In this document: in pieces, positions 210 to 1,846 of the stretch
How positions within the stretch are numbered: the first letter of the stretch is position 1
How the letters are laid out: each line of letters starts with the position of its first letter
Sequence record: PQ505080.1
Direction: 5' to 3' (one strand)
Origin: Escherichia phage HMD-6
Length of the DNA: 64,000 bases
The notes under the pieces: generated by a model
Database searches by the model: none
The model's input: only the letters and a program-made list of their open reading frames with translations
What the model was told of the DNA's origin: nothing
Made by a program: the position numbers and the translations under genes

Positions 210-620
210 ATGGTGTCTCCTTTATGTTGTTCAAATAAAATCGGAGATTCCATAATGGAACAAATGAACGATCAAGCGTCGGTTGCGATGAACGAGCAAG
301 AACAACCTCAAGAATTTTTCTTAGGGTTAAGCAAAGATCAGGTGTCTCTCCTGCTAGTGCTCTCTTCTTTCATGGGGAGACTTCAGGAGCTCACACAACA
401 ACCAGAGGCTGAACAATTATTTCAGGCTCTGCGCGAAGAAGAAAAATATCGTCGTTTGGATTATGCCTTAGGTTGGGTAGCTCAGCAACGAGATATGCTA
501 ATGGCCCTTTCTGGGACGACAAGTTTTGCAATGGGCCTGTTGGCTCAAGTGCAAGACAAATTAATTCAAGCAGGGTTTGCACACACAGCAAACACCAACG
601 AAGAACAAGGAGACAAATAA
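210..620 (+). CDS. hypothetical protein (136 aa)
   Basis: ORF track; AAGGAG RBS 8 nt upstream of ATG; stop overlaps next start (TAATG). Confidence 0.6.
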   Translation: MVSPLCCSNKIGDSIMEQMNDQASVAMNEQEQPQEFFLGLSKDQVSLLLVLSSFMGRLQELTQQPEAEQLFQALREEEKYRRLDYALGWVAQQRDMLMALSGTTSFAMGLLAQVQDKLIQAGFAHTANTNEEQGDK

Positions 621-1846
621 TGAGCGTTATTCAACAATTTGCCAACCCGATGAATCCGCGTGAAACTGTTTTACTGGCTCACGGTATGATTAAACGTGTC
701 AGCATCAAACCTATCAAAGGTGCTGATCCTACAACAGGTATTAAAACTACTGTGTGGCAAGGTAAGAAAATCGAGTCCAGTCACACCATCTCCTTACTGA
801 TTTCTGAACTGGATTCTTCTGATAACCTACTTCAAGGTGGTGAAGAGGTTTGGATCAGCATGGGTGATAAGTTGCTTAAACCGGGTCATCAAGATTCCGT
901 CTCTGTTAAAATTGATGATAAGTGGGAAACAGTGACGCCAGGATGGATCGTAAATATCCCTTTAAAGGCAAATGAGCATAACGGTAAGACCTACTACAAA
1001 GGCTCATTGGCTAAAATGGTTAAGCTGGGGGCAGGAGATGCTCCAGCAGCCCCACAGCAACAAAAACAGCAACAAGGCACACAATCACAAGGCCAGAAGC
1101 AGAAACCTCAGCAGAATGCCAATCAGGACGTTTTACGCATCTATGGTGATGTGACTCAGATTGTTGGTAACGTGGTTACTGTCAATGACCACAAGATTGG
1201 CGAAGGTGCTATGGTTGTCTCCGATGAGCAGCTTAAAGACCTGGTGGTTGGCGGTCGTGTTGCAGCTATTGTTGACAAAGACACCGGGAATATTATCAGC
1301 GGCTTCAAGGCCTACCCGCCTAAAGCAGAGAACGGTACACAAGGTTCTGGTGGTAAGCGTAAATCCTCTTACGACCCCATCGGTGTAGAGACAGGGCACA
1401 GTATCAATGCGTTGCAGATCATTCTGGATCGCGGGTTTAAGATTGACAGTCCTTTAGATGTGGCTAAAACACTGCACGTGGTCACCATCGAGCTTAAGAA
1501 AGAGTACGCTCAAGCCACCAATCGAACTGAAGATGAAGTAGGTGCCAGTGTTGGTAATGCGGTATTGAACGCTTGTCGCCGTATTGACAAGAAAACGAAA
1601 GTTGATGATTTTGCAGTAGCAATTACTGCAGAGGCAAAAGATGTCTTGACTAATCTTGCTGAACCGTTGTATGATTGGATCAAGAACGGCGCTGGAGCCA
1701 CTGACCATCAAGAGCCTCAAGCTGCCAAACAGGAAGCCTCCCCACAGCAAAACACTGTAGACGCTCCTCCTGTAGATGATGACGGAGATGACCCGATGGA
1801 TCAGAATCCAGCACAGTATGACTTCTGTGATGACATACCTTTTTAA
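620..1846 (+). CDS. Gln-rich protein with SSB-like acidic C-terminal tip (..DFCDDIPF); possible ssDNA-binding protein or SSB-tail mimic
   Basis: ATG at 620 with GGAGA RBS; C-terminus ends DDIPF like bacterial SSB; low-complexity Q-rich linker; N-terminal domain not recognisable by eye. Confidence 0.7.
   Translation: MSVIQQFANPMNPRETVLLAHGMIKRVSIKPIKGADPTTGIKTTVWQGKKIESSHTISLLISELDSSDNLLQGGEEVWISMGDKLLKPGHQDSVSVKIDDKWETVTPGWIVNIPLKANEHNGKTYYKGSLAKMVKLGAGDAPAAPQQQKQQQGTQSQGQKQKPQQNANQDVLRIYGDVTQIVGNVVTVNDHKIGEGAMVVSDEQLKDLVVGGRVAAIVDKDTGNIISGFKAYPPKAENGTQGSGGKRKSSYDPIGVETGHSINALQIILDRGFKIDSPLDVAKTLHVVTIELKKEYAQATNRTEDEVGASVGNAVLNACRRIDKKTKVDDFAVAITAEAKDVLTNLAEPLYDWIKNGAGATDHQEPQAAKQEASPQQNTVDAPPVDDDGDDPMDQNPAQYDFCDDIPF

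What the first reader, a model, noticed from the sequence alone, without database searches (positions are those of the whole stretch)
620..1846. Early protein carrying a bacterial-SSB-type acidic C-terminal tip
The 408-aa product ends ..DDDGDDPMDQNPAQYDFCDDIPF, matching the DDIPF tip that bacterial SSB uses to recruit partner proteins, but the N-terminal region is Q-rich and does not look like a canonical OB-fold SSB by eye. It may be a divergent phage SSB, or an early protein that mimics the SSB tail to compete for host SSB-interacting proteins.
Basis: partly seen in the sequence, partly recalled or inferred. Interest (0 to 1): 0.5.

Follow-up and report, generated by a model that had tools for sequence, protein, structure and literature searches.

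The report
Essential phage SSB with host-type tail
This gene of an rV5-like E. coli phage most likely encodes the phage's own essential single-stranded-DNA-binding protein, built on an unusual scaffold but ending in the same short acidic tail that the host's SSB uses to recruit partner proteins; a 2026 preprint has already described the near-identical protein of a sister phage in these terms.

Summary
ORF 620-1846 (+) encodes 408 aa ending ...DFCDDIPF. This tip is the most constant feature of a large phage family (phrog_4477, "unknown function"; 246 clusters at 50% identity): Pro-Phe is almost invariant and the consensus is D-[F/W]-D-D-D-[I/L/V]-P-F, identical to the E. coli SSB C-terminus over up to 13 residues.

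The window is a Vequintavirus. The protein is 96% identical and syntenic to Bas52_0087, which a 2026 preprint describes as an SSB-like protein with an E. coli-type tip and as the trigger of the DRT10 defence. The Bas54 orthologue is essential by transposon sequencing. I found no other SSB in the genome.

It is therefore most likely the phage's replicative SSB, not a mere decoy. Many relatives carry a homing-endonuclease cassette inserted at the tip codons, which buries the tip, and they remain viable. The core observation is already published. Neither ssDNA binding nor tip-partner binding has been tested.

The parts
183..211 (+). sigma-70-like promoter candidate upstream of the two-gene unit
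   Evidence: TTGTAA-17-TAAAAT with a TG extension. This is a consensus match only and is not evidence of function.
255..620 (+). Upstream 121-aa ORF (phrog_7310, unknown function) whose stop codon overlaps the ATG of the SSB-like gene
   Evidence: The stop/start overlap ATAATG is visible in the sequence. It matches phrog_7310. It is homologous to PVP-SE1 gp38, which lies just upstream of gp39 (E 4e-11). The Bas54 orthologue bas54_0086 is called 'Intermediate' fitness in HIDEN-SEQ. JLBYU08 also labels it 'putative SSB', and I found no support for that label.
620..1846 (+). SSB-like protein gene, 408 aa (= rv5_gp209 / FV3_00195 / Bas52_0087 orthologue)
   Evidence: phrog_4477, E 5.5e-172; 96.1% identity to Bas52_0087, same length.
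620..1039 (+). Residues 1-140: N-terminal OB-fold domain, the presumed ssDNA-binding module
1040..1126 (+). Residues 141-169: Q/P/G-rich disordered linker
   Evidence: pLDDT is below 50. Length and sequence vary among homologues.
1127..1327 (+). Residues 170-236: small beta-barrel with OB-like topology (b1-b2-b3-helix-b4-b5), found only in the long-form members
   Evidence: AF2 secondary structure with pLDDT 80-85. The domain is absent from the ~260-300-aa members. The DRT10 preprint calls it a second OB fold. I did not test its fold separately.
1367..1690 (+). Residues 250-357: four-helix bundle, the best-conserved domain of the family; contains D252 and Y351, the DRT10 escape positions
1691..1843 (+). 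Residues 358-408: disordered P/Q/acidic tail (net charge -12)
   Evidence: pLDDT is below 50. Charge count: 13 D+E against 1 K+R.
1820..1843 (+). Residues 401-408, DFCDDIPF: SSB-type C-terminal tip
1841..1846 (+). Phe codon and stop codon: the site where relatives carry a homing-endonuclease cassette. It is empty in this window.
   Evidence: In SYGMH1, Bas54 and rV5, TTT TAA becomes TTC GCT..., which adds APVGLQYGKSRIHAL and an overlapping endonuclease ORF.
1862..1893 (+). Intrinsic terminator closing the unit
   Evidence: GCCCTACCC-GAAA-GGGTGGGGC followed by a T run.

Best explanation
The gene encodes the phage's own, essential replicative single-stranded-DNA-binding protein. It belongs to a non-canonical SSB family (phrog_4477) that is widespread in rV5-like, PVP-SE1-like, CR3/phiTE-like and phi92-like myophages and in many uncultured phages.

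Proposed mechanism:
- The N-terminal OB fold, helped in long-form members by a second small OB-like barrel, binds the ssDNA exposed by the phage's T7-type replisome (family-A polymerase plus gp4-type helicase-primase). This step is inferred.
- The conserved four-helix bundle mediates self-association or cooperativity, or contact with a partner. This is inferred. It is also the surface whose alteration lets phage Bas52 escape the DRT10 defence, which was shown genetically in the preprint.
- The disordered acidic tail ends in a tip of the same type as the host SSB-Ct. The tip is expected to dock into the SSB-Ct pockets of host proteins such as ExoI/SbcB, RecQ, PriA or Pol III chi, and/or onto phage replisome proteins as in T7 gp2.5. 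This is inferred from established knowledge of SSB-Ct and gp2.5 tails.
- A free tip improves fitness but is not required for viability on E. coli K-12. This is shown indirectly, by viable phages whose tip is masked.

For: Architecture: folded core, then a disordered linker, then an acidic tip, as in bacterial SSB.

Context: the gene is co-oriented with and downstream of rIIA/B, a RecD-like helicase, the helicase-primase and the polymerase. In KP2025 it lies just downstream of the polymerase genes.

No alternative SSB: the rV5 genome paper lists none. A fully read annotated genome has none other, apart from the unsupported label on the small upstream ORF, and E. coli SSB matches only this gene's tail.

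Essentiality: bas54_0087 has insertions at 8 of 57 TA sites and is called 'Essential', while most neighbouring genes are non-essential.

Orthology: the window protein is 96.1% identical to, the same length as, and syntenic with Bas52_0087. The authors of the preprint independently predicted an SSB-like fold for that protein with Phold and AF2.

Public annotation: some records already label family members as SSB.
Against: - No sequence-level match to any SSB family in Pfam, PDB or PHROGs. The only sequence similarity to SSB is in the tail.
- ssDNA binding, oligomeric state and tip-partner binding have never been measured for any family member, as far as the searched literature shows.
- The four-helix bundle has no counterpart in any characterised SSB.
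- Roughly a quarter to nearly half of close relatives tolerate a masked tip, so the tip's importance is uncertain.
Confidence: 0.72

Rival explanations
1. SSB-tail decoy. The protein's main job is to present a host-type SSB-Ct that competes with host SSB for ExoI/SbcB and other SSB-interacting proteins, disarming host ssDNA processing. The folded domains would serve only as a scaffold.
For: The tip is identical in type to host SSB-Ct, with up to 13 identical residues in relatives. DRT10 activity depends on both SbcB dosage and this protein, and the preprint's authors raise the possibility of competition with SbcB.
Against: The orthologue is essential on K-12 in Bas54, where 15 extra residues follow IPF, so the Phe carboxylate that SSB-Ct pockets recognise (established for E. 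coli SSB) is not free. PVP-SE1 keeps the extension permanently. There is an SSB-type OB fold with conserved aromatic and basic positions. No other SSB is present in the genome. Expressing Bas52_0087 alone had no effect on host viability.
Confidence: 0.12
2. A gp2.5-like internal coupling tail. The protein is the phage SSB, but the acidic Phe-terminated tail works mainly inside the phage replisome, binding the phage family-A polymerase and helicase-primase and folding back on the OB surface as in T7 gp2.5. Its likeness to host SSB-Ct would then reflect common ancestry or a borrowed gene segment, not host targeting.
For: The replisome is T7-type: PolA plus a gp4-like helicase-primase. Weak Foldseek similarity to DUF2815/gp2.5-class models. 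The tail has net charge -12 and a terminal Phe.
Against: The same masked-tip phages are viable, whereas the terminal Phe of T7 gp2.5 is essential (established knowledge, not tested here). The match to the host tip extends well beyond 'acidic plus Phe', to PPMDFDDDIPF in enterobacterial phages. No Pfam DUF2815 hit.
Confidence: 0.2
3. Not an SSB but a recombination mediator or replisome-loading factor with an OB-plus-helical architecture, reminiscent of RecO, that merely carries an SSB-like tail.
Against: RecO-type proteins bind SSB-Ct and do not carry one (established knowledge). The helical domain has no specific similarity to RecO or to any loader. No Pfam hits. The top structural matches are true SSBs. 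The genome would then lack any SSB at all.
Confidence: 0.08

Closest known systems
Bas52_0087 (QXV84166.1) of Escherichia phage RudolfGeigy, described in bioRxiv 10.64898/2026.04.29.721553
   Same: It is the direct orthologue: 96.1% identity, 408 aa, the same position between the same neighbouring genes, and D252 and Y351 conserved.
   Different: The window protein has DFCDDIPF where Bas52 has SFDDDIPF. The preprint describes 'two OB folds plus a disordered C-terminus' and a 'putative oligomerization interface'. Here that interface resolves as a separate, family-defining four-helix bundle. The preprint contains no biochemistry.
E. coli SSB (PF00436; PDB 1eqq, 1kaw)
   Different: No sequence similarity outside the tail. 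The phage protein also has a second small barrel and a four-helix bundle. E. coli SSB tetramerises through its OB domain, whereas the oligomeric state here is unknown.
T7 gp2.5 / DUF2815-type phage SSBs
   Same: A phage SSB serving a PolA plus gp4-type replisome, with an acidic tail ending in an aromatic residue. Weak Foldseek similarity to DUF2815-labelled models.
   Different: No Pfam match. The helical bundle is absent from gp2.5. The tip follows the host SSB consensus, not the gp2.5 sequence. The tip can be masked without loss of viability.
Phage-encoded E. coli-type SSBs (e.g. HK620 SSB, PMC5928155)
   Same: Phage SSBs that keep the host-type DDDIPF tip and so stay compatible with SSB-Ct-binding partners.
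   Different: Those are bona fide PF00436 homologues. This family is unrelated in sequence and has a different domain architecture.

Membership tests
phrog_4477 / Bas52_0087-like 'SSB-like' phage proteins | Full-length sequence match to the family profile | tested here: met
   E 5.5e-172 over 1-408 against profile positions 1-393 of 393. 96.1% identity to Bas52_0087.
phrog_4477 / Bas52_0087-like 'SSB-like' phage proteins | Same genomic position as the described member | tested here: met
   The flanking ORFs of 366 bp and 417 bp are the same as in Bas52, Bas55 and FV3.
phrog_4477 / Bas52_0087-like 'SSB-like' phage proteins | Architecture of OB domain, conserved helical bundle and acidic tail ending in [I/L/V]-P-F | tested here: met
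Bacterial-type SSB (Pfam PF00436) | Sequence match to the SSB OB-domain profile | tested here: not met
   No Pfam hit for this protein at E <= 10, or for any of 150 family members at E <= 0.01. phmmer and hmmsearch against PDB find SSB only through the tail.
Bacterial-type SSB (Pfam PF00436) | OB-fold ssDNA-binding core | tested here: met
Bacterial-type SSB (Pfam PF00436) | Disordered linker plus acidic C-terminal tip ending in DDD[I/L]PF | tested here: met
   DFCDDIPF here and DFDDDIPF in most relatives. The tail is disordered with net charge -12.
Bacterial-type SSB (Pfam PF00436) | High-affinity ssDNA binding and homotetramer formation through the OB domain | not testable with these tools
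   Requires purified protein (EMSA or fluorescence titration, SEC-MALS).
Bacterial-type SSB (Pfam PF00436) | The tip binds SSB-interacting proteins (ExoI, RecQ, PriA, chi) | not testable with these tools
   Only indirect genetic links exist: SbcB dosage modulates the DRT10 response that this protein triggers.
T7 gp2.5-like SSB (DUF2815) | Sequence or profile match to the family | tested here: not met
   No Pfam hit.
T7 gp2.5-like SSB (DUF2815) | gp2.5-type OB fold | tested here: inconclusive
T7 gp2.5-like SSB (DUF2815) | Acidic C-terminal tail with an essential terminal aromatic residue | tested here: inconclusive
   An acidic tail with a terminal Phe is present. However, phages whose Phe is made internal by the extension are viable, and the gene is essential in one of them.
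RecO-like recombination mediators | OB domain plus RecO-type helical domain and zinc motif | tested here: not met

The most novel reading that the evidence does not exclude
This family would be a distinct class of replicative SSB. Self-assembly and cooperativity would be supplied by a dedicated four-helix bundle, not by the OB fold, and that bundle would also be the surface read by the DRT10 defence. The host-identical tip would be a conditionally useful add-on that recruits or titrates host SSB partners such as ExoI. It would be dispensable enough that a dedicated family of homing endonucleases can use the tip-coding DNA as its landing site, creating natural 'tip-masked' alleles.
Probability: 0.3. 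Interest if true: 0.55.

Novelty: already known. Interest (0 to 1): 0.3.

Why it matters
Vequintaviruses and their relatives are common therapeutic-phage candidates, yet their replication proteins are poorly annotated. This gene is labelled 'hypothetical' in most of the roughly 115 close records. Recognising it as the essential SSB fills the missing component of their T7-like replisome.

It also explains why the gene can act as a defence trigger, since phage SSBs are recurrent triggers of defence systems such as DRT10, Retron-Eco8 and DARNA.

Alleles with free and masked tips occur naturally side by side. That provides a ready-made genetic system for asking what a host-type SSB tip contributes to a virulent phage. 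The central observation has, however, already been published for the orthologue, so the increment here is mainly context and annotation.

Tried and rejected
- Pfam on the protein and on 150 family members: nothing.
- PDB sequence searches with the single sequence and with the family profile: only the tail matches E. coli SSB, at E 0.14.
- Genomic contexts of two distant metagenomic members: the contigs were too short to be informative. One has a T7 gp5.9-like neighbour.
- Testing whether the tip co-varies with the host SSB tip: not possible. The members ending in ...DDLPF come from metagenomes of unknown host, and their nearest cultured relatives are all enterobacterial phages.
- The retron paper that uses Bas51 concerns a methyltransferase trigger, not this gene.
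- The upstream ORF as a second SSB, as JLBYU08 annotates it: no supporting evidence. It matches phrog_7310 (unknown function) and has no Pfam hit.
Its OB-like nature rests on predicted strand-helix order and on the preprint's statement.

Full report
**1. The observation**

The ORF starts at ATG 620 and ends at TAA 1844-1846. Of 739 six-frame ORF segments of at least 40 aa in the window, it is the only one with such an ending. Its ATG overlaps the stop codon of a 121-aa upstream ORF. A sigma-70-like site at 183-211 and a strong intrinsic terminator at 1862-1883 bracket this two-gene unit.

**2. Where the window comes from**

The first 6 kb are 92-97% identical to about 110 Vequintavirus genomes (rV5, FV3 and relatives). 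The gene corresponds to FV3_00195 and rv5_gp209, and nearly every record annotates it as 'hypothetical protein'. It lies on the same strand as, and downstream of, rIIA/rIIB, a RecD/Pif1-type helicase, the gp4-type helicase-primase and the family-A DNA polymerase, separated from the polymerase by about a dozen small ORFs.

**3. The family**

- The protein matches no Pfam family and no PDB sequence.
- It matches phrog_4477 ('unknown function') end to end, at E 5.5e-172.
- Homologues occur in Vequintavirus, Seunavirus (PVP-SE1), Certrevirus (CR3, phiTE), many Klebsiella, Erwinia, Cronobacter and Pectobacterium myophages, and phi92-like phages.
- An exhaustive profile search finds 246 clusters at 50% identity.
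- There are two architectures: about 360-420 aa, and about 250-300 aa lacking the middle domain.
- None of 150 diverse members hits Pfam.

**4. The tip is a family character**

Nearly all full-length members end in an acidic run followed by [I/L/V]-P-F. Among the 158 that end in PF, the consensus is D-[F/W]-D-D-D-[I/L/V]-P-F. Several members share 11-13 terminal residues with E. coli SSB (...NEPPMDFDDDIPF). The E. coli sequence was confirmed because the family profile's best PDB hit is SSB 1eqq, through the tail alone. The Cys in this window's DFCDDIPF replaces the Asp found in 79% of the family.

**5. Structure**

AlphaFold2 with a 35-sequence alignment gives three confident domains separated by disordered segments:

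| Residues | Prediction |
|---|---|
| 1-140 | all-beta domain |
| 170-236 | small barrel with strand order b1-b2-b3-helix-b4-b5 (OB-like) |
| 237-249 | disordered |
| 252-356 | four-helix bundle, pLDDT above 90 |
| 358-408 | disordered tail, net charge -12 |

- Other OB proteins score almost as well, so this is an SSB-type OB fold by best match, not a proof of function.
- Family-wide conserved aromatic positions (55, 78, 102, 120, 126) and basic positions (43, 97, 123) lie in this domain.
- Foldseek against viral models finds uncharacterised family members first. Weaker hits are labelled SSB, DUF2815 or 'helix-destabilizing protein'.

**6. Prior description**

A bioRxiv preprint of 30 April 2026 (10.64898/2026.04.29.721553) reports the following:

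- Escape mutants of BASEL phage Bas52 against the DRT10 (UG17) reverse-transcriptase defence carry D252V or Y351C in Bas52_0087.
- The protein carries an FDDDIPF motif like the E. coli SSB C-tip.
- Expressing the protein alone does not activate DRT10.
- SbcB (ExoI) dosage modulates the defence.

I confirmed that Bas52 is phage RudolfGeigy (MZ501102) and that bas52_0087 (QXV84166.1) is the syntenic orthologue. It is 408 aa and 96.1% identical to the window protein, with D252 and Y351 conserved. In my model both escape positions lie in the four-helix bundle, at the start of helix 1 and near the end of helix 4. A few GenBank records already label family members as SSB: JLBYU08, KP2025, and several phi92-like phages. 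I found no biochemistry on ssDNA binding or tip binding.

**7. Function: core SSB or decoy?**

- The rV5 genome paper lists a ligase, a PolA, a gp4-like helicase-primase and a Pif1/RecD helicase, but no SSB.
- I read one comparatively well-annotated Vequintavirus genome (JLBYU08) from end to end. Apart from this gene and the small upstream ORF that shares its label, no gene is called an SSB. tblastn with E. coli SSB hits only the tail of this gene's orthologue.
- The HIDEN-SEQ transposon study of Bas54 (10.1101/2025.11.20.689424, supplement file 9) calls bas54_0087 'Essential', with 8 of 57 TA sites hit. Most flanking genes are non-essential, and the upstream partner bas54_0086 is 'Intermediate'.

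An essential, OB-fold, SSB-tailed protein in a replication gene cluster, in a genome with no other SSB, is best explained as the replicative SSB.

**8. The tip can be masked**

- In SYGMH1, Bas54, rV5 and others, the stop codon after Phe is replaced (TTT TAA becomes TTC GCT...). This adds APVGLQYGKSRIHAL.
- An inserted endonuclease gene of about 0.6 kb (phrog_1035, 'endonuclease VII'; annotated 'putative homing endonuclease' in Bas54) starts inside this extension in another reading frame.
- The cassette matches 52 phage records, 32 of them over at least 80% of its length, against about 115 records that carry the gene. The type phage rV5 is among them.
- Homologous endonuclease ORFs overlap the 3' end in the same way in very divergent family members.
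- PVP-SE1 gp39 keeps the extension with only a stub of the endonuclease ORF, followed by a terminator.
- The window itself has the empty site.
- Bas54 carries the cassette and the gene is still essential there. So the essential function does not need a free IPF carboxyl terminus. In E. coli SSB that free terminus is what partner pockets recognise; this is established knowledge that I did not test here.

This argues against a pure decoy role and against a strictly gp2.5-like essential terminal Phe. The near-universal conservation of the tip still argues that it is useful.

**9. Verdict**

The 'divergent phage SSB' reading is supported, while the remark that no OB fold is present is wrong. The 'mimic' reading remains possible only as a secondary activity. 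By sequence the protein is not a member of PF00436 or DUF2815. It is a member of phrog_4477, the Bas52_0087 family. The core finding is already known from the 2026 preprint. This analysis adds four things: the breadth of the family and its two architectures, recognition of the four-helix bundle as the family's conserved core and the site of the DRT10 escape substitutions, the link to essentiality, and the homing-endonuclease association with the tip codons.

Noticed in passing
window 1841-1846 (empty site); L003 3716-4370; L010 1944-2567; L014 6180-6232; L017 2178-2492; L018 2399-2845: A family of homing-type endonuclease genes (phrog_1035/2340; N-terminal motif C-x-K-C-G...FYKH..M.DGH.NKCKEC) is found inserted at the Phe/stop codon of the SSB-like gene. 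This holds both in close relatives (32-52 phage records, including rV5) and in very divergent family members. The insertion adds a 15-16-aa extension (APIGLQY....AL) that buries the IPF tip. PVP-SE1 keeps the extension but has only a stub of the endonuclease gene. The conserved tip-coding DNA looks like the homing site.
   Followed up: partly
window 255-620 (+): A 121-aa acidic ORF (phrog_7310, unknown function) whose stop codon overlaps the start codon of the SSB-like gene. It is homologous to PVP-SE1 gp38 in the same position, and HIDEN-SEQ calls its Bas54 orthologue 'Intermediate' fitness. JLBYU08 labels it 'putative SSB', and I found no support for that. It may be a partner of the SSB-like protein.
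   Followed up: partly
window 62809-63087 (+), with ORF 62393-62821: A group I intron (Rfam RF00028, 81 bits) lies directly after an ORF with a Walker-A motif that looks like the start of the terminase large subunit. terL therefore seems to be split by the intron in this phage, whereas it is a single ORF in JLBYU08.
   Followed up: no
window 60477-61286 (+): A cluster of six tRNA genes by Rfam. The corresponding cluster in JLBYU08 includes a tRNA annotated as a suppressor (anticodon tta).
   Followed up: no
window about 16400-18200: An ORF-poor stretch of about 2 kb at the switch of transcription direction. [quoted passage not shown]
   Followed up: no
window 1826-1828 (Cys403 codon TGT): The Cys in DFCDDIPF replaces the family's usual Asp. 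It is shared with the cassette-bearing phages SYGMH1 and Bas54 and with the 533-member cluster P0001, although this window lacks the cassette. This could be a co-conversion mark left by a past endonuclease visit.
   Followed up: no
window 3103-3561 (+): The ORF corresponds to a gene annotated as 'macro domain protein' or 'phosphatase' in related records (FV3_00191), which could be an ADP-ribose-processing function.
   Followed up: no
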